Source of the DNA: an uncultured virus (IMG/VR IMGVR_UViG_3300028854_000016)
Taxonomy: Duplodnaviria > Heunggongvirae > Uroviricota > Caudoviricetes
Virus record (IMG/VR): IMGVR_UViG_3300028854_000016
Location: 1 to 64,000 of that record
Direction: 5' to 3' (one strand)
Length of the DNA stretch: 64,000 nucleotides
Below are positions 1-41,718 of this stretch, piece after piece. Numbering within the stretch: the stretch's first letter is position 1; each line of letters opens with the position of its first letter. A program made the translations under genes and the position numbers. The notes under the pieces are model-generated. The model saw only the letters and a list, made by a program, of their open reading frames with translations, was not told the DNA's origin and searched no databases.

Positions 1-100
1 CCAAGTGCCATAAAGCAAATAATATTGCTTAAAAGGCATTTTTAAGCTCTTTGTTTTGTGTTTGTTACAAATTGTTGATTGCAAAGCACTTATTTTCTTA

Positions 101-129
101 TTGACATTTAACTTGAAAGCGAGTAATAT
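101..129 (+). promoter_or_regulatory. sigma70-type promoter, probably leaderless
   Basis: TTGACA(101-106)-17 nt-TAATAT(124-129), ATG 6 nt downstream at 136. Confidence 0.7.
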
Positions 130-135
130 TTAACT

Positions 136-1512
136 ATGGCAAACACATTAAACAAGAATCAATCTCCAGAAAAGCTTGGTCGTATTACTGATCAACCAAT
201 TCCGCATGAGTTGGCAGTTCGTGTTGCAGACAAGATCACGCAGGCTCGGGTAAGTATGTTGTTCAATCAGCAATTTTTTGGAACAATCGCAATGCGCATG
301 GAACTAATGCCTGCTGATAAATGGTTGCCAACCATGGCAGTTGACGGCAAGTATATGTATTATAATCATAATTTTGTTGATGAATTGTTTCAAGACGAGC
401 TGATTTTTGTGGTATCTCATGAAGTTCTTCATTTGGTTTATGACCATTTGGGAAGAAATGAGTTTCGTGACCGTCAGCTTTACAATATTGCTGCTGATTA
501 TGTCGTGAATGATGAATTGATCTTGGCTAAAGTTGGAAAATTTCCAACTCATAAAATCCAGAAAAAGGACTCTTATGGTTCGATGCGAACAGTCGAAGAG
601 CCAATTGGTTTGCATGATGTAAAATATCGTGACTGGAACAGCGAGAAAGTCTATGACGATCTTTTGCAACAGCAGGAGAAAAATGGCTCTGGCAAGGGTA
701 AAAATTCTGATGGTAGTGGAACTATGAATGGTCAGGGTTTAAGCGAATTGCTTGATAAGTTGCTGGATGAGCATATTTCTCCTGGTGCTGGAAAAGATGG
801 AGAACCGTCAAAGTCTGATGGAAAAGCGAGTGCAGATGGTCCTGCGACATTTGGAGATGAAGAACGCAAGCAATTGAAAGCAGAGTTGACGGACCAGATT
901 GTAAATTTGGCCAAGTCTTGTAATCCTGGAAATTTGCCGTCTGGTGTTCAAAGAATTATTGAACAAATGACAGCACCAAAGATGGATTGGAGAGCATTAT
1001 TGCAGTCCAATCTCGATAGCATTCTTCCTATTGACTATAACTATATGAAAATTAGTAGAAAGAGTACTCATCTCAATGTAATTCTTCCTGGGATTGTCAA
1101 TGATCAGTTGCTGAATATCGCAGTTGCAATTGATATGTCAGGAAGTATTGGAGAGAAAGAAGCTGCTGAATTTTTGAGTGAAATCAATGGAATTATGGGA
1201 CAATACCAATCCTATGAAATTTTGGTTTTTTGTTTTGATACCAAGTGTTATAATCAACAGATATATTCTTCAGATAATGGAGAAAATATTAATACATATG
1301 TTCCAATGGGCGGCGGTGGAACTGATGGTTCCTGCATTTTTGAGTATTTGAAAAATGAAGGAATTGAGCCAATGAAACTTGTGGTTTTCACTGATGGTTA
1401 TGTTGGAAACTGGGGCGATGAATTCTATTGTCCGACAATTTGGTGCATCAAGGGAAGTAAAGAAGTTCCTCCATTTGGACAGGTAGCTTATTTGGATGAT
1501 CAAATGAACTAA
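136..1512 (+). CDS. VWA-domain / zincin metallopeptidase-like protein (DUF2201-type)
   Basis: HEVLH (HExxH) motif, then C-terminal VWA MIDAS motifs DMSGS, GGGGT and VVFTDGY. Confidence 0.85.
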   Translation: MANTLNKNQSPEKLGRITDQPIPHELAVRVADKITQARVSMLFNQQFFGTIAMRMELMPADKWLPTMAVDGKYMYYNHNFVDELFQDELIFVVSHEVLHLVYDHLGRNEFRDRQLYNIAADYVVNDELILAKVGKFPTHKIQKKDSYGSMRTVEEPIGLHDVKYRDWNSEKVYDDLLQQQEKNGSGKGKNSDGSGTMNGQGLSELLDKLLDEHISPGAGKDGEPSKSDGKASADGPATFGDEERKQLKAELTDQIVNLAKSCNPGNLPSGVQRIIEQMTAPKMDWRALLQSNLDSILPIDYNYMKISRKSTHLNVILPGIVNDQLLNIAVAIDMSGSIGEKEAAEFLSEINGIMGQYQSYEILVFCFDTKCYNQQIYSSDNGENINTYVPMGGGGTDGSCIFEYLKNEGIEPMKLVVFTDGYVGNWGDEFYCPTIWCIKGSKEVPPFGQVAYLDDQMN

Positions 1513-1530
1513 TTTTTGAAATATTGAATT

Positions 1531-1575
1531 AGAAATAAAAAATCCACTCTAAATTAGAGTGGATTTTTTATTTCT
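1531..1575. terminator. bidirectional intrinsic terminator
   Basis: agaaataaaaaatccactct-aaatt-agagtggattttttatttct inverted repeat between convergent genes. Confidence 0.8.
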
Positions 1576-1877
1576 TGGTTGTGTAATAAGGCAGAAAACA
1601 TTTTAGCTTTAATTTTTCCTTCAAACATTTTGGTAAGTAGATGATGGCAAATAAAATGTTCTTTGGCAGTAAGAAAAACTTGATTTTCTTTTATTTTGGG
1701 ATGTACTAATCCGAAAGATTTTGGAATTATGTGATGAGACTCGATATAGCCAAGTGTGGATTTGACAATTTTTTTATTTGTTCCACGAAAAATTGCTTTA
1801 GAACAAATATTGATATAAATTTTAGTATATTTGTTAAATATAGCAATATTTTGAATTTGAGATATATAAATAGACAT
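1554..1877 (-). CDS. HNH homing endonuclease, probably C-terminally truncated
   Basis: ESHHIIPKSFG...NQVFLTAKEHFICHHLL HNH motif; ORF ends inside the terminator. Confidence 0.7.
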   Translation of the reverse strand: MSIYISQIQNIAIFNKYTKIYINICSKAIFRGTNKKIVKSTLGYIESHHIIPKSFGLVHPKIKENQVFLTAKEHFICHHLLTKMFEGKIKAKMFSALLHNQEIKNPL

Positions 1878-1934
1878 ATGCTGGTGTCCTATGAGACATT
1901 AGAATTGGTGGGTGATCTTAACACCGCGACCAAT
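1878..1934 (-). ncRNA. structured endonuclease-gene leader motif, copy 1
   Basis: attggt-cgc-ggtg-loop-cacc-c-accaat-tctaa-tgtc-loop-gaca-ccagc-at-ATG; same architecture at 28753-28814 and 40183-40241. Confidence 0.65.
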
Positions 1935-2026
1935 AATATTTATCTTGACAAAATATAATTTATGCTCTAATATTAAAGATATACAAGTTTAGAAAAGATA
2001 AATAAACACAGGAGAAACAAAACAAT

Positions 2027-2635
2027 ATGAGCAATAATATTTGCAAGCACGTTGGATTACATAATGCCAAGAAAATTTTAATTTTATGGAATAAAGTTCC
2101 TGGAGAATCTCATATGGCATTGGTTCTATTCGCTGATAAGATTCCCGCAGCATATTCTGAATTGGTTCATAAAACATTGGTAAGTGAAGCTGGGCAAAAA
2201 GCAAAAAATTTCGCAGATGCATTGAATGAAGTAAAGTTGCCTGACGGAAGAAATTTACTTAATGCTTTGCACACTGAATCGCATATTAAAAAAGTTCAAA
2301 CGAATCAGACATTTGTTACACCTGACTCAATTAACAAGATTAAGTTAAATGAACTCAATGATATGATGGATAAAATTGAAGAAGGCGGGGATGCTAAGAA
2401 AAAATTAGAAGATTTAGATTTATATAAAGGAATGAATAAAAGAAAACGACGAAATGGGCTGTCAACCACTCCCAGTGATTTAGATATTTCTGATAAAAAG
2501 ATGGTGGTAGCCTTGCAAGAGCAAGTCAAGCAATTGACTGGTGCTGTAGAAGCATTACTTGTTGAAGTTAGACAATTGAAAGGGGACAGATCAGAACCTG
2601 CTTCAGTTGCTCCCAAAACACGAAAAATAATTTAA
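2027..2635 (+). CDS. hypothetical phage protein
   Basis: 202-aa ORF with AGGAG SD and upstream ATAAATA; terminator follows. Confidence 0.75.
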   Translation: MSNNICKHVGLHNAKKILILWNKVPGESHMALVLFADKIPAAYSELVHKTLVSEAGQKAKNFADALNEVKLPDGRNLLNALHTESHIKKVQTNQTFVTPDSINKIKLNELNDMMDKIEEGGDAKKKLEDLDLYKGMNKRKRRNGLSTTPSDLDISDKKMVVALQEQVKQLTGAVEALLVEVRQLKGDRSEPASVAPKTRKII

Positions 2636-2644
2636 GCACAAATT

Positions 2645-2676
2645 AAAAAAGCCCAGCAAATTTGCTGGGCTTTTTA
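2645..2676. terminator. bidirectional intrinsic terminator
   Basis: taaaaaagcccagc-aaattt-gctgggctttttta. Confidence 0.8.
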
Positions 2677-2677
2677 T

Positions 2678-3700
2678 TTAAATTATTGGCATTCCAAATT
2701 TTTTACTAGTTTCTATGTTTTCTTGAATGATTTTAGATATAGATTCCCTCTCAAAAGCTGTAAGATAATAAGCTTCAGAATATGAAATACTCCCACGCAT
2801 ATACCATATTAACTTTAATAACTCAGCCTTAATATTTTTTGTTTCTGAATTCATCTTTTCAAGCATTTCAATAATTTCAGATTCAAACGCAGTGATAAGT
2901 TTATTTCTAAATTGAGTACAAAAATCTAAATCAATTGGCACTGATAATTGTTCTTGACATTTGGAACAAGTTATTTCTACATTTGGCAAATAGCATTGCT
3001 TAATTGATTCTGCAATATAACTACTAATTTCATTTTGAGATTGAATATCAAGTTGTTTGAACCATTCTTGAATATGATATTGAGAAGTAACTGTATTATT
3101 TGATTTAGAAATAATAATTTTATTTATAGATTGTGAATGAAATGAGTACAATAAATTTTTTTGTTGTGCAATTAATGAAATTAATATTTCTTCATATCCT
3201 TCTATTGAATTTAATTTGGATATTTGATAAATTTGTTTTCTTAATTTAAAATCAGCAATTGAAAATATATTGAATTGTTTATATGTTGGTGGACTAAAAT
3301 ATATAATTAGATCATTCATTATTAATGGAGTAAACCACTTGTTGGCTGATAAAGAATTTATATATGAAGATAAATTAATTTCGTAAGGATCTTGAAAAGA
3401 ACATTTGGGACAAGTAATTAATAATTCAACTTTCATACCAGTTGTTGCAATTTTTATATTTGCCAATATTTGTTGAATATCACAAATTAACAAATTTTCA
3501 GGCTCAATAATTTCAGGACAGCAATTTTTAATTATTTCTTCAGTTGCTTTTCCAGACAATAAAGCGTCTGGTGTTCTTAAAGTAAATTCATCCAATATAA
3601 CCATCGAGTGAACAGAAATTTGCTTAGTGTTTCCAGTTATGGAATCACTAAGCAAATTTGTATAAAGTTTTGGTCGATTAAATGATATTTTGTTTTGCAT
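2678..3700 (-). CDS. baseplate hub assembly protein (T4 gp26/gp51-like)
   Basis: TPDALLSGKA..IKNCCP, CPKC and CSKC zinc motifs, C-terminal WYMRGSISYSEAY gp51-like segment. Confidence 0.65.
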   Translation of the reverse strand: MQNKISFNRPKLYTNLLSDSITGNTKQISVHSMVILDEFTLRTPDALLSGKATEEIIKNCCPEIIEPENLLICDIQQILANIKIATTGMKVELLITCPKCSFQDPYEINLSSYINSLSANKWFTPLIMNDLIIYFSPPTYKQFNIFSIADFKLRKQIYQISKLNSIEGYEEILISLIAQQKNLLYSFHSQSINKIIISKSNNTVTSQYHIQEWFKQLDIQSQNEISSYIAESIKQCYLPNVEITCSKCQEQLSVPIDLDFCTQFRNKLITAFESEIIEMLEKMNSETKNIKAELLKLIWYMRGSISYSEAYYLTAFERESISKIIQENIETSKKFGMPII

Positions 3701-4634
3701 TTTGCTCTGGAAGAAATGAAGATCCCATAAATGTTATTTCAGCTTGCCATTCAGGTGGCGCACCAGCTTTTAATTCGTCTAAGGTGCTATGTTGAAGTGG
3801 TATTGAAAAAGCATATTTTTTTCTTTGTGCTTCCAAATGATCACGAATAGCATTAAAAAATTCAATATCCATTCCACGAATAATTTGATTAATTTGCTTT
3901 TCATCTTGAGGAGTGGAAGATGTGAGAGAAACAATTGTGTTATTATTGGAATCAATTAGTTCAAGAGTTTTAATACTGTCACATACTAAATTTATTGCAG
4001 TATTGGATAATTGATTTATACTATCAGTGAATAATTTTTCATCTTTAATATTTTCATTTGAATCAAAATTTTTTGTTAATGCTTTTTTCTGCTGGCTAAT
4101 ATCTTTAGAAATATTAAATAAATATTTTAGTGAAATTGGATAAATTGTAAGTGATATTTTTTGCCCATCTTCGCTTTCTATGATAATAGAATCATCCCAT
4201 TTATCTTTTCGTGATAAAAGTTCACACAAAAAAGTTGTTAATGATATTTTAAGTGTTCTTACTAATTTAGTATTTGGTACTGAGACATTTAATTCAAAAT
4301 CATCTCCATAACTGGCCAATCTTATAGCTAACAAAATAGTATCTACATCAATATTTGGTATATTTTCAGGATTCAATATTCCAGGTAGGCATTCTTTGAT
4401 TAGATCATATGTAGATTTTCCAGAAAGACTAATATCTCCTGCCCTAAATTTTATATCAGCATCAGCAGTCATGGCAAATACTGACAAACTTCCATCTTTA
4501 TCTAAAGATAGACTATTTTCTGGATACCATTGTCCTTTGCTTGGAAGAAATAATGATAATTTCTTTTTTCTAAAAAAAGAAGTAAGCGGATTTATTTCTG
4601 GAGTTTCATTATTTGATGAAGTAATTGTTTTCAT
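3678..4634 (-). CDS. baseplate hub subunit (T4 gp26-like), paralogue of the adjacent gene
   Basis: NPLTSFFRKKK..LPSKGQWY, IKECLP, DVDTILLAIRLASYG. Confidence 0.7.
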   Translation of the reverse strand: MKTITSSNNETPEINPLTSFFRKKKLSLFLPSKGQWYPENSLSLDKDGSLSVFAMTADADIKFRAGDISLSGKSTYDLIKECLPGILNPENIPNIDVDTILLAIRLASYGDDFELNVSVPNTKLVRTLKISLTTFLCELLSRKDKWDDSIIIESEDGQKISLTIYPISLKYLFNISKDISQQKKALTKNFDSNENIKDEKLFTDSINQLSNTAINLVCDSIKTLELIDSNNNTIVSLTSSTPQDEKQINQIIRGMDIEFFNAIRDHLEAQRKKYAFSIPLQHSTLDELKAGAPPEWQAEITFMGSSFLPEQNAKQNII

Positions 4635-4698
4635 TGTAAACCTCTGAAGTATTTATGTGAGCTAAATACATAAGAATATAATTTTTTAATGGTGATAA

Positions 4699-6828
4699 AT
4701 GGCAACAGTAAGAATAGTTTCTAAGGGCAATACGCTGGATGGGTCAGAACTCGACAATATTGCGTCTGAGGAGACACTGTTAGCATTGCTTGAGCAATTG
4801 AAAATTATTAATGGCGGAGCTTCAGAAATTAAAAAAGAATCAACAAAAACAAAAACAAATACTGATAAGCATTTTGACTTACTGGGGAAAGTAATTGGTA
4901 AAAATAAAGCAGATACAGTTCAACACATATTTAATGCAATTAAAGGAGTTGGGGCTGGCGAGGCTGGTAGTGCGGGTGGCTTGATAGCTAAAATTGCTCC
5001 AGAATTGGCTGTTATGACTGCTTTTATTGCTGTATTGGACGTAGCAAAAAATACATTTTTTGGATTAGTTAATACTTCAGCATTATTGGTTAAATCATTT
5101 GTTGATGGCCAGTCATCGTTGTCTGATTATACCAAAGCTTTAGCAGCAGGAACACAGCATATTTTGATTATTGGCACATTGGTTGGTCTTTTTTCTAAAG
5201 GAATAGAAATTATTGATTCTTGGAATAATAAGTTATATGAACTTAACACTGTTGGTGCTGGATTTAATAATAGTCTTATTGAAATGAGACAGCGTGCGGC
5301 TGATGCTGGCTTATCGTTAGAAGATTACTCCAAAATAATTATCGCAAACAAAGATAATTTTGCTACTTTTGGTTCCATAATGAATGGAGTTAATACTTAT
5401 AATAAAATAGCCACTATTTCTATGAGAGATTATACAGATCAATTAGCTAATATGGGTATTTCTTTATCGCAGTATCAAGAAGAGTTACCAGGGGTATTAT
5501 CTCTTTTCGGGGCATCTATGAAAGCTCATGGGGCAAGTGATAAACAATTAGCTTCTAGCGCCATTGAATTGACCAGTCAATTTGATGCAATGGCAAAATT
5601 AACAGGAAAAACTCGTGAACAGCAAGTGGCTGATATGCAAAAATTAACTGCTGACGCTGCTTGGAAATTAAAATTATCTGAAATGAGCGATTCAGAAAGA
5701 ACACAAGAACTTGCAGCATTAAATGAAGTAAATTCAACAATGGGAGCAACTGCTGCTGAATTATACAAAATGAAAGTTCTTGGTATTGTTCCATTAGGGA
5801 AAGAAATGCAAATATTAATGGCAACTGTTCCTGGATTAGATAGACAATTTACAGAAATGTCTCAATTAGCAGCACAAGGAAAACTTCTTCCTGGAGAAAT
5901 GGATAGAAGAATTGCTGAAATGGTTGGTTCAGGCTTACGCGCTGGTAAAGGATTGGAACAAATTCTTAAAGCAGCCACATCAGGTATCGGAGGAACACCA
6001 GAAACTATTGCAAAGATTCAAAGTGAATTAATGGCTAATAGCCAATCATTTCTTGATAAAAATGGTGTTTTTAATGAAGAATTATTTAGACAAAATCTTG
6101 CAACTGTAAGAGCACAAGCTGATAAAGAAGATGGAATTCGCAAATCATTGGCTGAGTGGAATTCATCAGTTAAACTATTGCAAGATTTTTTCTTTCAAAA
6201 AATATTACAACCAATAATGTATAAACTTGCCCCAATTATATCGAATATAGTTAAAAAATTTGAAGCCAAGCAAGGATCTTTACAAGGATTGATAGATGGA
6301 GTAGTTAATATTGTTGTTGGATTTGTTGGTATTGTTGGAAGTATTGTATCATTCGTAATGAATAATTGGGGGTTGATTAAAATTATTTTTGATGTATTGT
6401 TGGTTTTGGGTGTAGCATTCTTAGGAGCGGTTATTGGCATAACACTGGCTGCTGTAGGATTGAGTATAGCTCTTGCGCCTGCTGCACTAATAACTGGTGC
6501 TCTTCTTGGCGGGTTAGTTGCATTAGTTGCATTGTTGGCGTCTATCGGGCTTATTAGTATGCCAACATTACCATCAGTTGCAGGGATTACTAGCGCAAAA
6601 ATTCCATCAATGCCAAAGCTATCTTCAATGGAAAATGCTACTTCAGAAAATACATCAGTTTTTCAACCACCAACTAATGTTCAATCAATAACAAGTGAAA
6701 ACTCTTCATCAACTATAGGATCAAAATTGGATGATCATTATGCCATTTTACAACAAATAAGAGATTCAATACAACAAACAGCAAATAATACTCATAAATT
6801 ACATCAAATAACTGTGGCTGGCCAATAA
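4699..6828 (+). CDS. tape-measure-like / baseplate hub protein
   Basis: 709 aa, Ala/Leu-rich helical, long hydrophobic stretch near the C-terminus, divergent from the hub genes. Confidence 0.55.
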   Translation: MATVRIVSKGNTLDGSELDNIASEETLLALLEQLKIINGGASEIKKESTKTKTNTDKHFDLLGKVIGKNKADTVQHIFNAIKGVGAGEAGSAGGLIAKIAPELAVMTAFIAVLDVAKNTFFGLVNTSALLVKSFVDGQSSLSDYTKALAAGTQHILIIGTLVGLFSKGIEIIDSWNNKLYELNTVGAGFNNSLIEMRQRAADAGLSLEDYSKIIIANKDNFATFGSIMNGVNTYNKIATISMRDYTDQLANMGISLSQYQEELPGVLSLFGASMKAHGASDKQLASSAIELTSQFDAMAKLTGKTREQQVADMQKLTADAAWKLKLSEMSDSERTQELAALNEVNSTMGATAAELYKMKVLGIVPLGKEMQILMATVPGLDRQFTEMSQLAAQGKLLPGEMDRRIAEMVGSGLRAGKGLEQILKAATSGIGGTPETIAKIQSELMANSQSFLDKNGVFNEELFRQNLATVRAQADKEDGIRKSLAEWNSSVKLLQDFFFQKILQPIMYKLAPIISNIVKKFEAKQGSLQGLIDGVVNIVVGFVGIVGSIVSFVMNNWGLIKIIFDVLLVLGVAFLGAVIGITLAAVGLSIALAPAALITGALLGGLVALVALLASIGLISMPTLPSVAGITSAKIPSMPKLSSMENATSENTSVFQPPTNVQSITSENSSSTIGSKLDDHYAILQQIRDSIQQTANNTHKLHQITVAGQ

Positions 6829-7535
6829 TGAAGATATGTGAACTTAGATTTAGTTTCAATTCAACCACCAAAAAATATATGTTTGGTGATTTGAAAAAAC
6901 AATGGGATTTTATGGAAATTGCTCCCATAACTATCGGAAAAATTGGTGGATATAATTTGTTTTTAAAAAGAGAAAAAAATAACGAATTAATTCAAGTATT
7001 AGATACTATAAATGATAAGGACGCTGGATATATATCATTCATAATTAAAGGAAAAGCACATTCTATAAGCGAAACTGCATTTGATAATCTATATTTGGGG
7101 CTAGGGTTGGCTACTACAGTTTATGCATTTCTTATTCTAAAAAAGAATTATATTCTATGGAGCGAAGATGCTCAGACAAAAGGTGGAAAATCTATTTGGG
7201 ATAAGTTAGCAAAAGTTAATGGAATTACTGTGTTTGCTTGGGATAAGAAAAATAAAGAAGCAATAAGCCTTGATAAAAATGATTTAAATAGTGATGTTGA
7301 GATATATGACATTGATGTTGAATGGGATAAAAGTAAATATGCTAAATTATGGAAAGAATTCAATACATATTTTTATACAATTGCAAAATTGAAGAAAATG
7401 AAAAAATTATCTCCAAATATTCTTGAGCTTCAAAAGAAAATGATGGCAGTTTATCGAAAAATGCAAAATATTAGAAAAGAAGAATTAAATATAGAAAATA
7501 ATATGACATTAGTTGCTCAAAAGAGGATAAGATAA
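6828..7535 (+). CDS. hypothetical protein, possible GNAT-like fold
   Basis: YLGLGLATTVY resembles an acetyl-CoA loop; SEDAQTKGGKSIWDKL resembles SDNQITEKGFNVWERL in 33249-33881. Confidence 0.45.
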   Translation: MKICELRFSFNSTTKKYMFGDLKKQWDFMEIAPITIGKIGGYNLFLKREKNNELIQVLDTINDKDAGYISFIIKGKAHSISETAFDNLYLGLGLATTVYAFLILKKNYILWSEDAQTKGGKSIWDKLAKVNGITVFAWDKKNKEAISLDKNDLNSDVEIYDIDVEWDKSKYAKLWKEFNTYFYTIAKLKKMKKLSPNILELQKKMMAVYRKMQNIRKEELNIENNMTLVAQKRIR

Positions 7536-7543
7536 ATATTGGA

Positions 7544-8707
7544 ATGAAAGAAGTTATTGAAGCATACAATTATGCAAAAGAAAATAAGATTTCTTTAAGA
7601 AAAACTTCAATTGAATTAAGAAAAAATCCAATTGTGTTAGACTGGATAGATACACATTGCGATCCAAAACTTAATAAGAGACAACATGCCAAAAAATTGT
7701 ATTCAGCAGTTCATAATGGATTTTCATTTATTTGCATACATGGATTTGAATTTGGAATATCTGAATATATTGAGTTGAAATTTCCAAATAATATGAAAAA
7801 TGGATGTTGTTCATGTTATGAAGCATATATAAAATCAGATTATATGATTAAAAAAGTAGTTAATTCAAATAAGTTACAGAAGCAAACAAAGATAAAAAAA
7901 TATGGCGAATCATATGCTAAAGTTATTTCTAAAAAATGCATTAAAACTAATTTAAAGAAATATGGGGTTGAGTGGTCATCTCAAAATGAAGATATTCATA
8001 TGAAGTCGAAGCAAACTTGCAGAGAAAGATATGGAGCAGAGTTTCCATTGCAGTGCAATGATATTAAAGATAAAATGAAAATCGATTCTTTACAAATATA
8101 TGGAGTTGAATATCCAATGCAAAGCAATGTTGTTAAACAACATGTAATTGAAAATAATATTAAAGAACATGGGTGCCATCCTACACAATTGCATATCGAT
8201 GAAAAAGTAAGAGAAATTCTACAAAATAAAAATAAATTTTCAACATTATTGCAAGTTAATTCAGTTCATTCTTTGGCTAAACAGTTCAAAGTTAGTGATT
8301 ATTTAATTTTAAAAACACATAATAATTTTAAGCTTGATATTATCAAATCCAATTTAAGTTTATATGAAAATGAAATAGCGAATTGGTTACAAAGTATAAA
8401 TTTAATATTTAAACGAAAAGATAGAAAACATATTGGCAGAAAAGAATTAGATTTTTATTTTCCAGATTATCAATTTGCCATTGAATTCCAAGGAACTTTT
8501 TGGCATGGGCATGAAAGTTTATTTAAAGAAACAGATATTCACCCTATTTCTGGGAAATTAATTAAAGATATAAGAGAAGCAGATAACTTAAAAGCAAAAT
8601 TATGTGAAGAAAAAGAGATCGATTTATTTTGTATATGGGAACATGAGTGGAAACTAAATAAAGAAGAGATCAAGAAGCAAATTCTTGTCAAATTAGGATT
8701 GGTGTAA
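7544..8707 (+). CDS. free-standing homing endonuclease (KYGV repeats plus Vsr/PD-(D/E)XK-like C-terminal domain)
   Basis: KYGVEWSSQ-type repeats; ELDFYFPDYQFAIEFQGTFWHG...IWEHEW. Confidence 0.75.
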   Translation: MKEVIEAYNYAKENKISLRKTSIELRKNPIVLDWIDTHCDPKLNKRQHAKKLYSAVHNGFSFICIHGFEFGISEYIELKFPNNMKNGCCSCYEAYIKSDYMIKKVVNSNKLQKQTKIKKYGESYAKVISKKCIKTNLKKYGVEWSSQNEDIHMKSKQTCRERYGAEFPLQCNDIKDKMKIDSLQIYGVEYPMQSNVVKQHVIENNIKEHGCHPTQLHIDEKVREILQNKNKFSTLLQVNSVHSLAKQFKVSDYLILKTHNNFKLDIIKSNLSLYENEIANWLQSINLIFKRKDRKHIGRKELDFYFPDYQFAIEFQGTFWHGHESLFKETDIHPISGKLIKDIREADNLKAKLCEEKEIDLFCIWEHEWKLNKEEIKKQILVKLGLV

Positions 8708-8709: not shown

Positions 8710-11700
8710 ATGGCCTGGAAAAAATATTTCAAAAAAGCAACGCCAAATCAAGATGGGGTTTTTAGTCCTCTTTCTCGACGCGGTGGCAGAAGCACTGGAG
8801 AAGACGCAGTTGGTGTAAATAGTTATCCAAATCTTATTCAAGAGTCATATCTTGGATGCCCAAATCGTATAGAAAGATATCAGAATTTTGAAAGTATGGA
8901 TCAGGATTCAGAAGTGAACTCTGCCCTTGATATTTTAGCTGAATTTAGCACTCAAAGCAATGAGCAAGATAATATGTGTTTTAACGTAAAATTTAAAGAA
9001 CCTCCGACAGAAACTGAATCTAAAATTATCAAAAAGCAATTGCAGTCATGGTATTATTTGAATGAATTCAATAAAAGAGCATTTAGATTGTTTAGAAATG
9101 TTATTAAATATGGTGACCAAATCTTCCTTCGTGACCCAGAAACATTTAAATTATTTTATGTAGAAATGGATAATGTTATTAAAGTAATTGTAAATGAAAG
9201 CAAAGGTAAGAAGCCAGAACAATATATTATTCGTAATATGGCTCCAAATTTTGAAAATTTAACAGCAACACAAGTTACAGCAAATAATCTTTATAATGTT
9301 GTTCCCAGTGGGCCAGGATTTAATGCTGCTGGTTCTGGATATAATGCTCCCAATAGTCCTTACAGTTCTAGTAGTAGATTTACAAAAGGATTAAATGAAC
9401 ATGCTATTAATGCAGAACATATTCTTCATCTTTCATTGACTGAAGGACTTGATCCCAATTGGCCATTTGGTAATAGTATTTTGGAGTTAATTTTTAAAGT
9501 TTATAAACAGAAGGAGTTACTGGAAGATAGTATTATCATTTATCGTGTTCAGAGAGCGCCAGAACGTAGAGTGTTCAAAATTGATGTTGGAGATATGCCT
9601 CAGCATTTGGCAATGGCATTCATTGAAAAAGTAAAAAATGAAATGCACCAACGTAGAATTCCAGGAAGATCAGATGGTGGAAATTTTCAAGATTCTACAT
9701 ATTTTAGTATGGCTCCAAATGCTGATTTTTTCTTTCCCATCACTTCCAGCGGTCGAGGATCTTCAGTTGAGCAATTGGCAGGTGGCTGCTTAAAAATGGA
9801 TACTAAAGTTCCATTATTAGATGGTAGAACGCTTTCATTAATTGAATTAACTGAAGAATTCCAAGAAGGTAAAGAGAATTGGGTGTATAGTTGTAATCCA
9901 GAAACAGGAGAAGTAGTACCAGGAATTATTTCTTGGGCAGGAGTAACTCATGAGTCTGCCCAAGTAATGAAAATAACTCTTGATAATGAGGAAGAAATTA
10001 TTTGTACTCTTGATCATAAATTTCCCATCCTAGAAAAAGGATTCGTTGAAGCAAAAGATTTGAGTATTGGAGAAAGATTTATTCCTTTTAATATTCAAAA
10101 TAGAGAAATATTAAAAACTAGAAAAAAACAATATACACAAGTATATCAAAATAATACTAAAAAATGGGAATTTGTTCATAGAATGATAGCTCATTGTTTA
10201 GCATTAGAAAATTTTGTTTTTGATGAGCAATATAAAAATAGTAAAAAAGATGTAATTCACCATAAAAATTTTAACAGATTTGATAATTCTCCTTCTAATT
10301 TGGTTAGAATGGCATTTAAAGATCATACTGATTTTCATTCTTATTATGGATTTAGTAAGGATAGTCAAGTTCTTGGTACTATTGCTGCAAAAGAAAAAAT
10401 GGAATTTATTAAAATTAACTATCCAGAAAAATATAAAAAGTTAATGAAAGAAAAAGGAAAGCGTCATAAAGAATTTTGGGCTTCTTTAAATATAGAAGAA
10501 AGGCAGCAATATATTGATATTAAAAAAATCGGATTGCAGAATTATTTTAAAAATTTAACAGATAAAGAAAGAAATATTCGTATTGAAGAAATGATGCCAA
10601 CTATTAATAGTTTAATTAAAGCATCTAAAGATAAGTTAGAAAAAATGAATACAGATGAAGATTATTATAACTGGGTTTGCGAGCATCAGCAAAAAGGTTG
10701 GGATAAATTTAAGAAAACACCAGAAGCAAAAATTCGTGGAAAGAAAATTGGAAATGATAATCGTTTAAGATTTTCTCGCCCTGGTTATACAGAGAATGTT
10801 TTTAAAAACCAAAGAGTAAAAGTTGATAAACAAACATTGGATTATGTTCAAAGTTTGGTTTTACAAAAAAATAAAATTAAAATAGTTGAAGCAATTAAAT
10901 TATTTAATGACACAGATGAATATTTGAATTATTATTTAAATTTAAATAAAGAAACTTGCTGCGCAAATTGGAATAATGATAGATTGACTGGAAGCCAATT
11001 AAGAAATGCATTGAAAATTCGTGGATATAAAAATTGGAAGCAATTCAGAGATGAAGTTAGATTATATAACCATGCCATAGTATCAATTGAATATTTGTCT
11101 GAGCCAATACAAGTTGGAACTTTAACTATTGATAAAGATGAAAAATATCATAATTATCATACTTTTGCTTTGGCTAGTGGAATTTTTACAAAAAATTCTA
11201 ATTTGAATGAAATTGATGATTTAAAATACTTTAATAATAAGATGATGCGTGGATTAAGAATTCCGAGTAGTTATCTTCCAACTGGTCAAGATGATAGCCC
11301 TTCAACAATAAATGATGGAAGAGTTGGCACAGCATTAATTCAAGAATACAGATTTAATCAATATTGTGAAAGACTCCAAAAATTGGTTTGTGATCCTTTA
11401 GATTTGGAATTTAAAGCATATTTAAAATGGAGCGGAATTAATATTGATTCAAGTATGTTTCAATTGACTTTTAATCCACCACAAAATTTTGCTCACTATA
11501 GACAAGCAGAATTAGATAGTTCTAAAATTAGCACATTTACTCAATTAGAAGGATATCAATATTTTAGTAAGAGATTTTTGATGGAACGATATCTTGGTAT
11601 GACTTCTGAAGAAATCAATGAAAATCAAAAATTATGGAGAGAAGAAAATGTATCTCCTGATCAAATTGAATCAGAGCCTTCTGACTTGAGAAATCTTGGT

Positions 11701-27593: not shown

Positions 27594-27594
27594 A

Positions 27595-28752
27595 TTATAT
27601 TACCTCTATCGTATTTATGGATTTATTTGAAATATATTGTAGTATATCATTTTTGATTTCTTCTTTTTTAGAATTCCAGTCCAATTCCCATATGATCATT
27701 AAATCAATTTCTTTTTCTTTGCACAATTTTGATTTTCGCGCATCTCTTTCCCATATTTTTTGAGCACTTCCCTTGCATTTATTAATATCGTGTTCATTAT
27801 ATTTTCTAGGGTCCATGTGCCAATAAGTTCCTTGAAATTCAATAGCGAAATTTATATTGGGACAGTAAAAATCAAGTTCAAATTTTTTTAAGGGTTTCCA
27901 AGTATTTGATACAAATTGTATATTATTTTCATTTAAAAAATTGGAAAGCTCAAGCTCATAACTTGAAGTCCCAGTATCTGTTATAATATTTAAATTATAT
28001 CGTTTATGATAATTGTAAATAGTTACTGGAGTACATCCTAATATTTTTGATAATTTAATAACTCCATATTTTATTAGCATTTTAGTAAAAACATCTTTAT
28101 TTTCAAGTATTTTAATAGTTTCTTGAGAGAAATGTTTTTGAGCATAAAAAGAAACTCCATTATTTTCTATACAAGTATCAATTTTTTGTTGTTTAACTTT
28201 TGGATTTTTAGATGGATTATCATAACCAGAATTTTTCATACAGGTATTTTTGATAATTTTTTGAACTTTTTCTTCTCTCATGGGATGGCCACTAACATAG
28301 TTTTTTATAAATGTTTCTTTTATTCGAGTTTTGATAATAGAAGATTTTGATGGATTATTGACTCCCCAATTTTTAATAAACTTTTGTTTATTTTCTTCTT
28401 TAATTTTTTCTGATTTTCCAGGATTATCTGTTCCATATTTTTCTAAACAGGTTTCTTTAGTTCTATATTGAATACATTTACAGCCACGTTTACAGCTAAA
28501 TTTATGTGTCGATGGCCTGTATTTTTGTTTATTTCCATATGAACAAATTAATTCAAAATTAGGATTTAAAATTAAAAAAATTTTTGATCCCAAAGAATCA
28601 TTAAAATTAGAATATAAATTATTAATTTCGTCATTTATCCATTTTAATAAATCTTTATGATCATTGTTTCTAATTAAATTAATAAAATATGGAGATTCCT
28701 TTTTTAATTTTAAAATTTCTCCAACAGCATTTTCACGAGTATAAATATTCAT
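27595..28752 (-). CDS. free-standing homing endonuclease (KYG repeats plus Vsr-like domain)
   Basis: ELDFYCPNINFAIEFQGTYWHMDP...IWELDW; start placed at MNIY after the GGAG SD. Confidence 0.78.
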   Translation of the reverse strand: MNIYTRENAVGEILKLKKESPYFINLIRNNDHKDLLKWINDEINNLYSNFNDSLGSKIFLILNPNFELICSYGNKQKYRPSTHKFSCKRGCKCIQYRTKETCLEKYGTDNPGKSEKIKEENKQKFIKNWGVNNPSKSSIIKTRIKETFIKNYVSGHPMREEKVQKIIKNTCMKNSGYDNPSKNPKVKQQKIDTCIENNGVSFYAQKHFSQETIKILENKDVFTKMLIKYGVIKLSKILGCTPVTIYNYHKRYNLNIITDTGTSSYELELSNFLNENNIQFVSNTWKPLKKFELDFYCPNINFAIEFQGTYWHMDPRKYNEHDINKCKGSAQKIWERDARKSKLCKEKEIDLMIIWELDWNSKKEEIKNDILQYISNKSINTIEVI

Positions 28753-28814
28753 AAGCTGATACTTCTCCATACACAGTATTAGAGTAGTCGAGGACCCCTA
28801 TTCCTGTGGTCTGC
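28753..28814 (-). ncRNA. structured endonuclease-gene leader motif, copy 2
   Basis: gcagac-cac-agga-loop-tcct-c-gactac-tctaa-tact-(ggag)-agta-tcagc-tt-ATG. Confidence 0.6.
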
Positions 28815-28847
28815 ATTAGTATTTATGGATTTTAAATAAATACTTAT

Positions 28848-29476
28848 ATGATTATTAATGAGATAATAAAACATGGATTAATAAATCCTGGTGATATTTC
28901 GAGAATACACGAATCTAAAAGATTTGTGGGAGTTTCTAAATATATTCAAAATCATTGCTCTGATATTCTAAAAATATATAGAGAAACAGACAATTATTTA
29001 TTTCGTGGATGGGCAGGTGATAAGCCATCAATTTTTATGGGCAATCCAAGAATAGATAGACAGCCAAAAGATGTAGCTTATAACATTCAAGTAGGAGTCG
29101 ATGAAAAATTAAAAGATGCAGGATTTACTGCATTAAGAAGCAATAGTATTTTTTGTACTTGTGAAAGAAATCACGCTGGAAAGTATGGAGCTGTATATGT
29201 GATTTTTCCAATTAATGGATTTAATTATACATGGGCTCTTGGATTATATGATTTATATATGAAGAAATATATTGTCAAAGGGACTCTTGACTTTACTCCA
29301 AAACAGTTTGTTAAACAGTGGAATTTTAAAAAACGGGAATAGAAACATTATTAAAAAATCATATTGGAATTGAAATTTATATCAATGGGCCATATATTGC
29401 AGTTGAAAGAGATTTTCTCTATGGAAAGCCAGATACCACGAAACCATTATTTGATATTTTAGGATTGAAAATATGA
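28848..29476 (+). pseudogene. ADP-ribosyltransferase-like paralogue with one frameshift near 29330
   Basis: LFRG..RQPKD..ALRSNSIFCT..IFPINGF; another frame continues EIYINGPYIAV and ends in an ATGA overlap with the next gene. Confidence 0.65.
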
Positions 29477-30150: not shown

Positions 30151-30171
30151 AAACTTTTTAAGGAATGAGTA

Positions 30172-30882: not shown

Positions 30883-30883
30883 A

Positions 30884-31654: not shown

Positions 31655-31658
31655 TTAA

Positions 31659-31688
31659 ATAAAAGCTTGCTAATTAGTAAGCTTTTAT
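31659..31688 (+). terminator. intrinsic terminator
   Basis: ataaaagcttgc-taatta-gtaagcttttat. Confidence 0.6.
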
Positions 31689-31704
31689 TTTATAATATTG
31701 ATAT

Positions 31705-32982: not shown

Positions 32983-32988
32983 TAAAGT

Positions 32989-33252
32989 ATGATTAACAAA
33001 ATTGAAGTAACCAGCGAACTAATAGATGAATTGCGAGCTAAAACAAAATTGGCAACCCCTGGATTTTGGTCTTGGGAAGACTCACCGCCAACTTTATACT
33101 CAAATAGAAATTATAATATGCATGGCATGAATCTTCTTGGTAGATTGGATTTGGATTGGAATGGAAAAAATAACTTGGATTTTATAGCAGCAACAGGACC
33201 AGAAATTATTAATGCTTTATTGGATAAAATTGAGGAACTGGAAAATAAATGA
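32989..33252 (+). CDS. Ead/Ea22-like small protein
   Basis: ATPGFW...DFIAATGPEIINALLDKIEELE pattern. Confidence 0.6.
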   Translation: MINKIEVTSELIDELRAKTKLATPGFWSWEDSPPTLYSNRNYNMHGMNLLGRLDLDWNGKNNLDFIAATGPEIINALLDKIEELENK

Positions 33253-40182: not shown

Positions 40183-40241
40183 GCCATTCACGACTCTGAC
40201 AAGTCCAATGGCTCTATCATAACTTGGAGAAATGACAGCCT
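40183..40241 (+). ncRNA. structured endonuclease-gene leader motif, copy 3
   Basis: gccatt-cac-gact-loop-agtc-c-aatggc-tcta-tcat-(ggag)-atga-cagc-ct-ATG. Confidence 0.65.
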
Positions 40242-41718
40242 ATGTCTATTTATACATACGAATCAGCACTCGCAGAAATTATCAGATTGAAATCAAAAAC
40301 TCCGTATTATGTTAACTTAATTAGAAAAATTGAATATAAATCATTGCTTGAGTGGATTAATATCCAAATTCCTGATGAAAAATACACAATAGGAGCAAAA
40401 ATTTTTCTTTTGCTTAACTCAGATTTAGAATTAATATGCCCATATGGAAAAGAAAAGAAATACAGAGCAGATTTATCTAAATTTGTTTGTATTAAATCGT
40501 GTCAATGTACAAAAGATAATAGATCCAAAACAAATGTTGATGTTTATGGATCAAGCTGTCCTTTGAAAAGCATAGAAGTGCAAGAAAAGAGAAAAAATAC
40601 TTGTATAGAATTGTATGGAGTTGATCATCCATCTAAATCAGAAGAAATTAAGAATAAAAAGAAACAAACCTGCATTAAAAATTTTGGTTATGATAATAAT
40701 TTAAAATCCCCAAAATGCAGAGAGAAGCGAAAGAAAACAATGTTAGAAAAATATGGATACGAAAATCCAGGAAATTGCCCAGAAATAATAGAAAAACAGC
40801 AAAACACTTGTATGGAAAATAATGGAGTTTCCTTCCCCTTTCAAGCAAAAGAAATTCAAGATAGAGTTAAGAAAACAATGTTAGAAAAATATGGATACGA
40901 AAATCCAGGAAATTGCCCAGAAATAATAGAAAAACAGCAAACCACTTGTATGGAAAGATATGGAGTTAATACTCCTTTTGACTCAAAAGAAATTCAAGAA
41001 AAAAGCAAAAATACACGAGAAAAAAATTATAAATTAAATTCTGTAATCAAAAAATCTAATGAAAAATTAAAAAATATAAGTATTTATGGAAAAGAAGATC
41101 CTACTAGTAAAGAAAAAGCAATAAAATATAAGAAAAACTAATATACAAAAATATGGAACTGAATGGTCAGTTCAAAAACATATTACTTCAAAATCTTTAG
41201 AAATTCTAAATTCTAAAAAATTATTAAATGAGATGTTAGAAAAAAATTCATTTGATGAAATATCAAAATTATTAGGAGTTACTTATTCTACAATTAATAG
41301 AAGATACAGAAAACACAATCCAGAAAAACCCTTGATTAAAAGGTCAAGTTCATTTCAAAATGAAATTGCTTGTTGGTTAATACAAGAAAATATAAAATTT
41401 ACTGAAAAAAATCGCACAATTTTAAAAAATAAAATTAAAATTAAAAATTTAAAAACAAAAGAATTAGATTTTTATCTTCCAGATTATAAAATTGGAATTG
41501 AATTCAATGGAACATATTGGCATATGGACCCAAGAAAATATAAATCAATTGATTATAATGAAATTGCTAAAAAGACAGCTCAAGAAATTTGGGATAAAGA
41601 CAAATATAAAGAAGATTTATGCAAATCATTGGATATAAAATTAATAGTTATTTGGGAGCAAGACTGGAAATCCAACAAAGAACAAATCAAAACAAATATA
41701 CTATCCCAACTTAGCTAA
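40242..41718 (+). pseudogene. KYG/Vsr-like homing endonuclease with a frameshift near 41100-41140
   Basis: first frame stops at 41141; second frame IRKTNIQKYGTEWSVQKH runs into ELDFYLPDYKIGIEFNGTYWHMDP. Confidence 0.75.
40731..40956 (+). repeat. near-perfect ~88-bp direct repeat, period 138 bp
   Basis: KKTMLEKYGYENPGNCPEIIEKQQ(N/T)TCME encoded at 40731 and 40869. Confidence 0.9.

What the first reader, a model, noticed from the sequence alone, without database searches (positions are those of the whole stretch)
1860..1942. Covarying ~60-nt structured leader shared by unrelated endonuclease genes (3 copies)
Seen: three genes share one upstream architecture: the HNH gene (1878-1934, minus) and two Vsr-like endonuclease genes (28753-28814 minus; 40183-40241 plus). 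The pattern is 6-bp stem / CRC bulge / 4-bp stem-loop / single C / 6-bp stem / TCTA(A) / 4-bp stem enclosing or overlapping the SD / CAGC / nT / ATG. Stem sequences differ completely yet still pair (attggt:accaat, gccatt:aatggc; ggtg:cacc, agga:tcct, gact:agtc; tgtc:gaca, tact:agta, tcat:atga), while the linkers are invariant. The outer stem of copy 2 is imperfect. Established: T4 intron endonuclease genes such as I-TevI are repressed by SD-sequestering hairpins. Inference: this is a conserved cis-regulatory RNA (or small catalytic or ligand-binding RNA) that travels with endonucleases of different families. I do not recognise it as a named family.
Basis: partly seen in the sequence, partly recalled or inferred. 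Interest (0 to 1): 0.85.

Follow-up and report, generated by a model that had tools for sequence, protein, structure and literature searches.

The report
Two-way promoter cassette heading phage nucleases
Three selfish DNA-cutting genes in this phage begin with the same short folded control region, which is widespread in uncultured phages, and its fold fits the strand opposite the nuclease gene, between two facing late promoters.

Summary
All three copies lie at the stated places, no other copy is in the 72.6-kb contig, and shuffles give about 0.2.

It is a large family. 61 of 100 IMG/VR loci found with a start-region pattern carry it. All 20 IMG/VR contigs searched have it, up to 7 copies each. 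Covariation is strong.

The reading as an mRNA leader is only partly right. In 55 cassettes and 17 pairs, 107 cells are G.U on the strand opposite the nuclease gene and 3 on the gene's strand. The "invariant linkers" are paired there: GCUG with UAG, including a near-invariant G.U, and the "CRC bulge / C" is one pair between two bulged G.

The fold sits between a late-promoter box upstream of the nuclease gene and its reverse complement in codons 2-5.

Best reading: a portable two-way late-expression cassette. Its outward RNA is antisense to the nuclease leader and often leads into the neighbouring phage gene (27 of 42 loci; HEG+/HEG- alleles). No transcript data were available.

Rfam has no match. 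This scan reported the same cassette before on other genomes.

The parts
1865..1872 (+). c1: TATAAATA box on the strand opposite the HNH gene. It is the reverse complement of HEG codons 2-5 (T ATT TAT A). Candidate outward late promoter.
   Evidence: a box of this kind in 50 of 58 family members
1875..1877 (-). c1: start codon of the HNH homing-endonuclease gene
1881..1902 (+). c1 hairpin A (opposite-strand reading): 8 pairs, CUGGUGUC with GACAUUAG, including G.U at 1883-1900 and 1884-1899. The loop holds the complement of the SD.
1904..1934 (+). c1 hairpin B (opposite-strand reading): P1 6 bp, G1910-C1927 pair flanked by bulged G1926 and G1928, P2 4 bp, loop 1915-1921.
1937..1944 (-). c1: GATAAATA late-promoter-like box, 2 nt upstream of P1 on the HEG strand
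1554..1877 (-). c1 gene: HNH homing endonuclease, 107 aa. It matches only positions 22-93 of a 343-position PHROG profile, so it is probably a remnant.
2027..2635 (+). Neighbouring phage gene (202 aa, phrog_15894), divergent from the c1 HEG, 92 nt past hairpin B. It has its own GATAAATA and AGGAG in between.
28740..28747 (+). c2: TATAAATA box opposite HEG codons 2-5
28756..28782 (+). c2 hairpin A (opposite strand), 8 pairs with G.U at 28758-28780. The loop contains CUCC.
28784..28814 (+). c2 hairpin B (opposite strand). P1 has 5 of 6 pairs (one G.U, one U-U). G28790.U28807 lies between bulged G28806 and G28808. P2 is 4 bp.
28820..28827 (-). c2: CATAAATA late-promoter-like box, 5 nt upstream of P1 on the HEG strand
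27595..28752 (-). c2 gene: Vsr-like/EDxHD homing endonuclease, 385 aa from the ATG at 28752. The ORF finder's start at 28770 lies inside the cassette.
28848..29342 (+). Neighbouring phage gene (164 aa, phrog_11975), divergent from the c2 HEG. Its ATG lies 33 nt past hairpin B.
40183..40212 (-). c3 hairpin B (the fold read on the minus strand)
40214..40238 (-). c3 hairpin A (read on the minus strand), 7 pairs. The A40216/C40236 position is G.U on the minus strand.
40247..40254 (-). c3: TATAAATA box on the minus strand, in HEG codons 2-5
40242..41718 (+). c3 gene: Vsr-like/EDxHD homing endonuclease broken into two ORFs (40242-41141 and 41233-41718). There is no promoter box on its own strand, and it follows the terminator at 40150-40178.

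Best explanation
The element is a portable two-way late-expression cassette of about 80-90 bases. It forms the head of free-standing homing-endonuclease genes (HEGs) in uncultured myoviruses with T4-type late promoters.

Read on the HEG strand, it consists of:
- a late-promoter box (N)ATAAATA;
- 2-8 nt of spacer;
- hairpin B;
- one base;
- hairpin A, holding the HEG's SD;
- the start codon;
- the exact complement of a late-promoter box in codons 2-5 (nnT ATT TAT A).

Shown here: the two hairpins are kept by compensatory change. The pairing rules (G.U allowed, A.C avoided) fit the strand opposite the HEG.

Inferred: the embedded box fires outward. This gives an RNA that starts at the foot of hairpin A, carries both hairpins, and is fully complementary to the HEG's 5' UTR, SD and start codon. 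That RNA would restrain the HEG in the way IS10 RNA-OUT or SymR restrain their targets. Where the HEG sits head-to-head with a phage gene, the same RNA would be that gene's promoter-proximal leader and make up for the operon break caused by the insertion.

The asymmetric wobble pairs keep the outward RNA folded while leaving the HEG mRNA's SD hairpin weak.
For: Family and covariation:
- 61 of 100 pattern loci carry the fold. All 20 IMG/VR contigs searched have it, 44 matches in all.
- On the 17-pair opposite-strand model, 55 sequences: 97.6% of cells paired against 71.6% in shuffles (0 of 500), 252 compensatory cells against 67, slid controls 29-47%.
- The top 12 APC-corrected mutual-information pairs all lie in the model.

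Strand:
- 806 Watson-Crick cells, 107 G.U on the opposite-strand reading, 3 on the HEG-strand reading, 19 other.
- Pair 21-56 is G.U in 53 of 55.
- The 'CRC/C' position is G-C in 34, G.U in 11 and A-U in 10. It is never the combination that would be G.U on the HEG strand.
- P1 alone on the 58-sequence alignment: 0 G.U against 8 A.C/C.A.
- MFE is lower on the opposite strand in 56 of 58 (means -17.3 against -13.1 kcal/mol). The z-score is -1.77 against -1.07.

The embedded box is a nucleotide-level feature, not a peptide:
- It heads unrelated nucleases.
- Codon 2 varies in amino acid but ends in T in all 16 cassettes that were found without the pattern and end in an ATG.
- L130 and L140 keep the box in another reading frame.
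- Three EDxHD paralogs in the window without the cassette lack the MxIY start.
- 12 of 20 cassettes found without the pattern have NATAAATA there.

NATAAATA behaves as a promoter motif in this contig: of 39 sites, 16 are intergenic although only about 6% of the contig is non-coding, and 22 have a same-strand gene start within 100 nt.

Outward function:
- In 27 of 42 loci with enough flank, a divergent ORF of at least 70 aa starts within 122 nt past hairpin B, often as UAUUUAUA-SD-ATG.
- At the gp4/gp2 junction, HEG-less alleles have the gp4 stop overlapping the gp2 start. The HEG+ allele L159 differs from L157 by a 453-nt insert, which is the reversed HEG ORF plus the cassette. The insert ends one base before the gp2 start codon and brings a new SD.
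- Cassettes persist where the HEG has decayed to 42 or 15 codons.
- T4 precedent: promoters for host genes embedded in seg/mob ORFs (PMC2988022, section 9, passages read).
Against: - No transcript evidence of any kind was available, so both promoters are motif-level inferences.
- 38 of the 58 cassettes were found with a pattern that imposed TATTTATA. Of the 20 found without it, 8 lack a clean box: 3 have GTAAATA, 3 have ATATATA, 2 have none.
- In 15 of 42 loci there is no nearby divergent gene to serve, c3 among them, yet the fold scores as well there.
- At c1 and c2 the neighbouring genes have box-like motifs of their own closer to their starts.
- At the gp4/gp2 locus nothing stops read-through from gp4, so the embedded promoter is not strictly needed there.
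- The G-rich strand folds better partly by composition: shuffled sequences give -12.4 against -10.1.
- Antisense action alone does not explain why two bulged G and the G.U are conserved.
Confidence: 0.5

Rival explanations
1. A discrete cis-antisense small RNA only. The embedded late promoter makes a two-hairpin RNA of about 65-75 nt that ends at hairpin B plus the U-rich complement of the HEG's promoter box. Its sole role is to brake HEG translation or mRNA stability, like a type I antitoxin RNA or IS10 RNA-OUT. Any effect on neighbouring genes is incidental.
For: - The strand evidence is the same as above.
- The fold is equally well kept where no divergent gene follows: L142 scores 70.5 bits, L143 63.2 and c3 54.6.
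- Hairpin B is G+C-rich and is followed by NNN-UAUUUAUA in 53 of 58.
- Bulged stems are a recalled design feature of antisense RNAs such as CopA (not checked in a paper here).
- CfrI, an antisense RNA over a homing-endonuclease gene, is known in cyanophage S-PM2 (PMC2984593, passage read).
Against: - In loci such as L134, L136, L137 and L112 the neighbour's SD and ATG follow hairpin B by 22-35 nt with no room for another promoter. An efficient terminator there would silence genes such as gp2.
- The U tract is interrupted and much weaker than the phage's own terminators at 1532-1574 and 40150-40178.
- The terminator scan did not call hairpin B.
- Cassettes outlive their HEGs, which a pure HEG brake would not.
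Confidence: 0.2
2. One reading: a sense-strand cis-regulatory leader of the HEG mRNA. P3 hides the SD and P1/P2 is a regulatory or stabilising 5' hairpin.
For: - All stems also pair on the HEG strand: 93.9% of cells on the 13-pair model.
- The SD lies in the P3 loop or 3' arm.
- The box upstream puts the expected late start at the foot of P1, so P1/P2 would be a 5'-terminal hairpin. The T4 spacing between box and start is recalled, not checked.
- T4-type precedent: I-TevI, mobE and gene e (PMC3014915 section 29 and PMC2988022 section 12, passages read).
Against: - 107 against 3 wobble cells favour the other strand.
- On the mRNA the extended P3 would carry an A.C mismatch at its third pair in 53 of 55, and the CRC/C pair an A.C in 11 of 55.
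- MFE is weaker on this strand in 56 of 58.
- This model does not explain the conserved box in codons 2-5.
Confidence: 0.12
3. Promoter-occlusion helix (P0). In read-through RNA of either direction, the box TATAAATA pairs with its complement UAUUUAUA. This closes a three-way junction that hides the HEG start region. RNAs started at either late promoter lack one arm and stay open, following the logic of T4 gene e and I-TevI. This could act together with the best explanation.
For: The two boxes are exact complements. MFE folds of the cassette with its flanks draw a helix between the two boxes on both strands in 2 of the 5 examples shown (L134, L106) and on the opposite strand only in c1 and c2. 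c3, which lacks the upstream box, has none. T4 precedent in PMC3014915 section 29.
Against: - The helix is 7-8 A-U pairs only.
- No covariation is possible or seen. Variant boxes such as CTAAATA and GTAAATA are not compensated.
- It does not explain the conserved inner hairpins or their strand bias.
- Three cassettes (c3, L081, L143) lack the upstream box altogether.
Confidence: 0.1
4. A DNA-level element: hairpins extruded on one DNA strand and recognised by a nuclease, recombinase or replication protein as part of HEG mobility.
For: G.T is also the best-tolerated mismatch in DNA hairpins, so the strand bias does not by itself exclude single-stranded DNA. The cassette lies at one end of the mobile insert.
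Against: - The element is locked to translation signals (SD in a loop, fixed distance to the ATG) and to two promoter boxes.
- The nucleases behind it belong to at least four unrelated families, so no common DNA-binding partner is evident.
- Homing by double-strand-break repair needs no such site (established knowledge).
Confidence: 0.03

Closest known systems
Late-promoter / RBS-hairpin control of T-even homing endonuclease genes (I-TevI, I-TevII, I-TevIII, segB; mobE of Aeh1) and of T4 gene e
   Same: A TATAAATA late promoter lies directly upstream of a structured region that contains the SD of a homing-endonuclease gene. The general aim is to keep a selfish nuclease late and low (PMC3014915 section 29, PMC2988022 section 12; passages read).
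   Different: Those are single hairpins on the mRNA whose 5' arm is lost in late transcripts. Here there are two covarying hairpins whose pairing rules fit the opposite strand, plus a second, facing promoter box inside the gene's first codons. The cassette is shared by unrelated nuclease families in many phages.
IS10 RNA-OUT / RNA-IN and SymR / SymE (cis-antisense control of a mobile-element or toxin nuclease gene; recalled, not read here)
   Same: A promoter inside the 5' end of the target gene points backwards. A short, stably folded RNA is complementary to the target's SD and start codon.
   Different: No expression data here. The promoter is a phage late promoter. The RNA may run on into a neighbouring gene. 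There is no sequence or structure homology.
Promoters for host genes embedded in T4 seg/mob endonuclease ORFs (e.g. gene 32 promoters inside segG)
   Same: The invading endonuclease gene carries the promoter that the neighbouring phage gene now depends on, which favours retention of the element (PMC2988022 section 9, passage read).
   Different: In T4 the embedded promoters point the same way as the endonuclease gene and serve the downstream gene. Here the box sits in codons 2-5, points the opposite way, and comes with a conserved folded leader.
CfrI antisense RNA of cyanophage S-PM2
   Same: An antisense RNA over a homing-endonuclease gene in a T4-like phage (PMC2984593, passage read).
   Different: CfrI is about 225 nt and links the HEG to psbA. 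It has not been reported as a portable, covarying cassette. I did not compare sequences.
5'-UTR hairpins of free-standing endonucleases in GOS 'fractured genes' (Dassa et al. 2009)
   Same: Hairpins, often with TATAAATA, upstream of GIY-YIG and Vsr-like free-standing HEGs in environmental phage DNA (PMC2677866 section 14, passages read).
   Different: Their MEME motifs (supplementary Figure S4, read) are a simple SD/anti-SD hairpin of the ATTACACTTCC / GGAAGTGTAAT type. None of the CRC...TCTAA...CAGC features appear. This is a different element, read there as an mRNA hairpin. Their Figure 4A is not held, so I could not see it.

Membership tests
Any Rfam 15 family | Match at the family's gathering score | tested here: not met
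   0 matches in the whole window on both strands. At E<=10 on 1800-2000 there is only a 14-bit ES036 hit, E=3.7, outside the element.
T4-type late-promoter/RBS-sequestering hairpin (I-TevI, mobE, gene e) | Late promoter TATAAATA immediately upstream of, or within, the 5' arm of the structure | tested here: met
   A box of the type NATAAATA or CTAAATA lies within 16 nt upstream of P1 in 53 of 58. Two more have it 10 nt away, and 3 lack it (c3, L081, L143).
T4-type late-promoter/RBS-sequestering hairpin (I-TevI, mobE, gene e) | The conserved hairpin is an mRNA structure that pairs the SD or AUG | tested here: not met
   Wobble pairs are 107 on the opposite strand against 3 on the mRNA strand. 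There is a near-invariant A.C in the mRNA version of the SD hairpin. The SD lies mostly in the loop.
T4-type late-promoter/RBS-sequestering hairpin (I-TevI, mobE, gene e) | Late transcripts lack the 5' arm and are translated; read-through RNA is not | not testable with these tools
   No RNA run was listed for this phage, so there are no 5'-end data.
cis-antisense RNA regulators (IS10 RNA-OUT, SymR type) | Promoter inside the 5' coding region of the target gene, reading backwards | tested here: inconclusive
   The motif is present in codons 2-5 in 50 of 58, and in 12 of the 20 found without the pattern. NATAAATA is enriched before gene starts in this contig. Promoter activity has not been shown.
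cis-antisense RNA regulators (IS10 RNA-OUT, SymR type) | Stable, conserved secondary structure of the antisense RNA | tested here: met
cis-antisense RNA regulators (IS10 RNA-OUT, SymR type) | A discrete RNA with its own 3' end | tested here: inconclusive
   Hairpin B is followed by an interrupted U tract. It was not called by the terminator scan. Neighbour genes start 22-35 nt further on in many loci.
HEG-embedded promoters serving neighbouring phage genes (segG / gene 32 type) | The insertion separates a phage gene from its upstream transcription unit, and the element carries a promoter facing that gene | tested here: met
   L159 (HEG+) against L157 (HEG-): the gp4 stop overlaps the gp2 start in the HEG-less allele. 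The 453-nt insert ends one base before the gp2 start codon and contains the box, the fold and an SD. This holds at motif level only.
   The 12 pairs with the highest corrected mutual information are all hairpin pairs of the model, and no pair outside it looks like base pairing or a pseudoknot. The conserved unpaired bases are only two bulged G, one linker A and the 5' G. No Rfam ribozyme or riboswitch match. Cleavage or ligand binding cannot be tested here.

The most novel reading that the evidence does not exclude
The cassette encodes a new, widespread class of phage RNA. It would be a late-transcribed, two-hairpin RNA made from a promoter hidden in the first codons of selfish nuclease genes. 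It would both silence the nuclease by antisense pairing and act as the leader that restores expression of the phage gene the nuclease has cut off from its operon. Its double-G-bulge hairpin and invariant G.U would be a recognition site for a conserved phage or host factor. In effect this would be a self-contained 'make the insertion harmless' module that lets nucleases of any family, TnpB included, invade phage operons in reverse orientation.
Probability: 0.3. Interest if true: 0.75.

Novelty: new variant of a known kind. Interest (0 to 1): 0.62.

Why it matters
Free-standing homing endonucleases are the main mobile elements of large phages. How they avoid harming their hosts has been worked out for only a few T4 genes.

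This cassette is a compact, portable solution shared by at least five unrelated nuclease families across many uncultured phages, with up to 7 copies in one genome. If the outward RNA is real, it would be one of the first widespread structured regulatory RNA families of T4-type and jumbo phages.

It would also be an example of one 80-base stretch coding for two promoters, two 5' leaders and the start of a protein.

Practical uses:
- The covariance model marks homing-endonuclease starts and their decayed remnants in metagenomic phage contigs.
- The strand-bias test (G.U against A.C) is a cheap way to assign a covarying fold to a strand.

Tried and rejected
- **Rfam:** no family matched.
- **megablast of 3.3 kb of the window against phage records:** no match.
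- **RNA evidence:** The look-up of sequencing runs listed no RNA holder for window 27500-37400.
- **HEG-less allele of c1:** The search for related loci with the c1 neighbour protein found only the same phage.
- **G010 as a HEG+/HEG- comparison:** this failed because G010 is the same phage. It is 100% identical over window 1-7009 and extends leftwards.
- **Bacterial and archaeal genomes:** 0 of the 120 have the fold by my descriptor.
- **Five cultured phages:** Phage C48C1, Melnitz-3, phiM19, Atu_ph07 and RsoM2USA gave 0 matches with R1. The same model and tool matched 20 of 20 IMG/VR contigs.
- **Pseudoknot between the P2 loop and CCAGC:** considered early and not supported by mutual information.
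- **Conserved MxIY as a peptide signal:** rejected for the reasons given under evidence.
- **Dassa et al. 2009 hairpins as the same element:** rejected after reading their motif sequences.
- **The 14.7-bit site at 25765-25843:** it lies inside the 24768-26108 gene and was not pursued.
- **Cultured relatives of the c2 protein:** tblastn against phage records gave only distant hits below 31% identity.
Full report
**1. The observation**

A descriptor for P1/CRC/P2/C/P1'/TCTA, with relaxed thresholds, finds only these three sites in the window and in the whole 72,594-base contig. In 100 dinucleotide shuffles the mean is 0.18 sites, and 0 with strict thresholds.

The genes behind them are homing endonucleases of different families:
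- c1 matches HNH-type homing-endonuclease profiles in PHROGs (no Pfam family); at 107 aa it is probably a remnant.
- c2 is Vsr-like/EDxHD with DUF7487 repeats, 385 aa.
- c3 is of the same family but broken into two ORFs.

**2. It is a large family**

The three copies also share ATG nnT ATT TAT A. The pattern CAGCNTATGNNTATTTATA found 103 stretches in IMG/VR.

I aligned 37 distinct leaders: the 3 window copies plus 34 loci. Three near-duplicates (L026, L032, L053) were left out of the 37 distinct IMG/VR ones listed. This gave alignment A2.

All 13 pairs change on both sides, with 158 compensatory cells against 41.9. Slid controls give 31-44%.

The covariance model R1 gave these results:
- It finds only the three copies in the window with filters off. 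They are among its own seed sequences and score 52-62 bits; the next site scores 14.7.
- It matches 61 of the first 100 pattern loci.
- It matches all 20 IMG/VR contigs searched whole, 44 matches in all. There are 7 copies in a complete 235.8-kb phage and 6 in a 79-kb fragment.
- Five cultured phages have no match.

Contig G010 is the same phage as the window. It is 100% identical over window 1-7009 and extends to the left. It carries two further cassettes.

**3.

A box of the late-promoter type TATAAATA, or GATAAATA, CATAAATA or CTAAATA, lies within 16 nt upstream of P1 in 53 of 58 distinct cassettes. Two more have it 10 nt away. Three lack it, c3 among them.

Codons 2-5 (T ATT TAT A) are its exact reverse complement.

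In this contig NATAAATA behaves like a promoter motif. Of 39 sites, 16 are intergenic although only about 6% of the contig is non-coding. 22 have a same-strand gene start within 100 nt downstream.

The box in the codons is a nucleotide feature, not a peptide:
- It heads unrelated nucleases.
- Codon 2 varies in amino acid but ends in T in all 16 cassettes that were found without the pattern and end in an ATG.
- L130 and L140 keep the box in another reading frame.
- The window's three EDxHD paralogs without the cassette start MKEV, MKLK and MVYT, with no MxIY.

Caveat: 38 of the 58 cassettes came through a pattern that imposed the box. Of the 20 that did not, 12 have NATAAATA, 3 have GTAAATA, 3 have ATATATA and 2 have none.

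**4. Which strand folds**

On the 58 distinct R1 matches (A3):
- P1 has 339 Watson-Crick cells, no G.U, and 8 A.C/C.A cells in 7 different sequences. Those cells are G.U on the other strand.
- P2 has 174 Watson-Crick cells only.

MFE is lower on the opposite strand in 56 of 58. The opposite-strand folds also show that the 'linkers' pair: GCUG(R) with (Y)UAG. The 'CRC bulge / C' becomes one pair flanked by two bulged G.

I re-aligned 55 cassettes in the opposite orientation (A4). The weak hits L116, L140 and L147 were left out. On a 17-pair model:
- 806 cells are Watson-Crick, 107 are G.U on the opposite strand, 3 would be G.U on the HEG strand, and 19 are other.
- Pair 21-56 is G.U in 53 of 55.
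- Pair 66-89 is G-C in 34, G.U in 11 and A-U in 10.
- The base after TCTA covaries with the base before CAGC.
- The tool count is 97.6% paired against 71.6% in shuffles, 252 compensatory cells against 67, and slid controls of 29-47%.
- The 12 highest corrected mutual-information pairs are all in this model, and no pseudoknot appears.

Part of the energy difference comes from composition: shuffles give -12.4 against -10.1. The wobble asymmetry does not depend on that.

I conclude, at about 90%, that selection keeps the fold on the strand opposite the endonuclease gene. On the mRNA the SD hairpin carries a built-in A.C mismatch.

**5. Context**

Downstream proteins, 46 scanned against Pfam:

| Pfam family | Proteins |
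|---|---|
| GIY-YIG/SegE | 7 |
| HNH or HNH_3 | 3 |
| NUMOD3 only | 13 |
| DUF4379/DUF723 zinc finger | 2 |
| TnpB (L146: OrfB_IS605 plus Cas12f-like TNB) | 1 |
| Weak, unrelated hit | 1 |
| No family | 19 |

Upstream of the cassette, in 27 of 42 loci with enough flank, a divergent ORF of at least 70 aa starts within 122 nt past hairpin B. Often the order is UAUUUAUA, then an SD, then the ATG. In 5 loci the ORF is 123-350 nt away, and 10 have none (crude ORF calls).

The clearest case is the gp4/gp2 junction (head completion / DNA end protector; names from annotated phage records):
- Of 80 loci, 5 carry the cassette.
- In HEG-less alleles the gp4 stop overlaps the gp2 start.
- L159 differs from L157 by a 453-nt insert that replaces 16 nt. 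The insert is the reversed HEG ORF plus the cassette.
- The insert recodes the last five gp4 codons, ends one base before the gp2 start codon, and brings an SD for gp2.

Cassettes also outlive their HEGs. In the same phage as the window, L123 has a 42-codon remnant and L128 a 15-codon ORF followed by a frame-shifted nuclease.

In the window:
- c1 and c2 are head-to-head with phage genes at 2027 and 28848.
- c3 follows a terminator and has no box of its own strand.
- The co-oriented HEGs at 7544, 15516 and 31705 have no cassette.

**6. Mechanism**

*Shown:* a covarying two-hairpin fold on the opposite strand; two facing promoter-type boxes; a position at the outer end of the mobile insert, abutting the neighbouring gene.

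*Inferred:*
- The embedded box starts an outward RNA at the foot of hairpin A. The T4 spacing of box to start is recalled, not checked.
- This RNA is complementary to the whole HEG leader. Hairpin A's loop carries the anti-SD.
- It would therefore restrain the HEG. Where a phage gene follows, it would also be that gene's leader.

T4 offers precedent for the pieces: late-promoter/hairpin control of HEGs, and host-gene promoters embedded in seg/mob ORFs (PMC3014915 section 29; PMC2988022 sections 9 and 12; passages read). An antisense RNA over a HEG is known in S-PM2 (PMC2984593).

*Against:*
- There is no transcript evidence. No RNA run was listed.
- The fold is as well kept where no divergent gene follows.
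- At c1 and c2 the neighbours have box-like motifs of their own.
- Read-through from gp4 could serve gp2.
- Nothing explains the conserved bulged G and the G.U.

Hairpin B with its interrupted U tract is a poor terminator beside the phage's own. In many loci it must let transcription through.

**7. Known or new**

Rfam has nothing.

Four full-text searches found no description of this cassette or of a facing promoter in HEG codons.

Dassa et al. 2009 reported hairpins with TATAAATA before free-standing HEGs. Their motif sequences (supplementary Figure S4) are a different and simpler SD/anti-SD hairpin. Their Figure 4A is not held and I could not see it.

This scan has reported the same cassette on at least seven other genomes, mostly with the opposite-strand reading. 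I had flagged the missing G.U pairs and the antisense-promoter idea beforehand. The strand tests were run after reading those notes, on my own data.

I file it as a new variant of a known kind: control and insulation of homing-endonuclease insertions.

Noticed in passing
L146:1561-2772 (IMG/VR contig behind L011): A 404-aa TnpB-like protein (HTH_OrfB_IS605, OrfB_IS605, Cas12f1-like TNB) starts with MSIY directly behind the same cassette (49.4 bits). The cassette therefore also heads an RNA-guided-nuclease-type gene, not only classical homing endonucleases.
   Followed up: partly
window 8710-11868: The portal-protein ORF is 1053 aa. It matches the portal profile in two stretches, with HNH endonuclease profiles at aa 462-569. 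This may be an intein or an in-frame endonuclease insertion.
   Followed up: no
window 55762-57386: The UvsX-like recombinase is split into two ORFs (55762-56691 and 56859-57386) with about 170 nt between them. No group I intron was called by Rfam. It could be a fractured gene or a decayed insertion.
   Followed up: no
window 7544-8704, 15516-16364, 31705-32979, 38480-39509: Four more homing-endonuclease genes (three EDxHD/phrog_3339, one phrog_314) are co-oriented with their neighbours and lack the cassette. The one at 38480 is split into two ORFs and sits behind a terminator and a TATAAT-like -10 (38402-38480).
   Followed up: partly
window 1-7009 and G010 (L148-L150): IMG/VR contig G010 (58,369 bases) is 100% identical to window 1-7009 in reverse and continues beyond the window's left end. 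The two records are pieces of one phage of at least about 124 kb. CheckV rates G010 as 16% complete, which suggests a jumbo phage.
   Followed up: partly
window 60410-61071: The BLAST of G010 against the contig shows an internal tandem repeat with a period of about 66 nt at about 60.4-61.1 kb, inside or next to the ORF 60478-61044 (phrog_17056). Related repeats lie at G010 8.6-9.4 kb and 30.5-30.9 kb.
   Followed up: no
L159:720-790 against L157:1157-1215: In the HEG+ allele the last five codons of gp4 are recoded (LNLKF against LGLKF, with different codons) and overlap the HEG's own last codons on the other strand. This is the pattern expected if the HEG target site spans the gp4/gp2 junction and the insert makes its carrier immune.
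   Followed up: partly
window 28848-30879, 42881-43630, 49758-51089: A paralog family (phrog_11975 / phrog_12810, function unknown) is present in at least five copies among the structural genes. One copy is the gene facing cassette c2.
   Followed up: no
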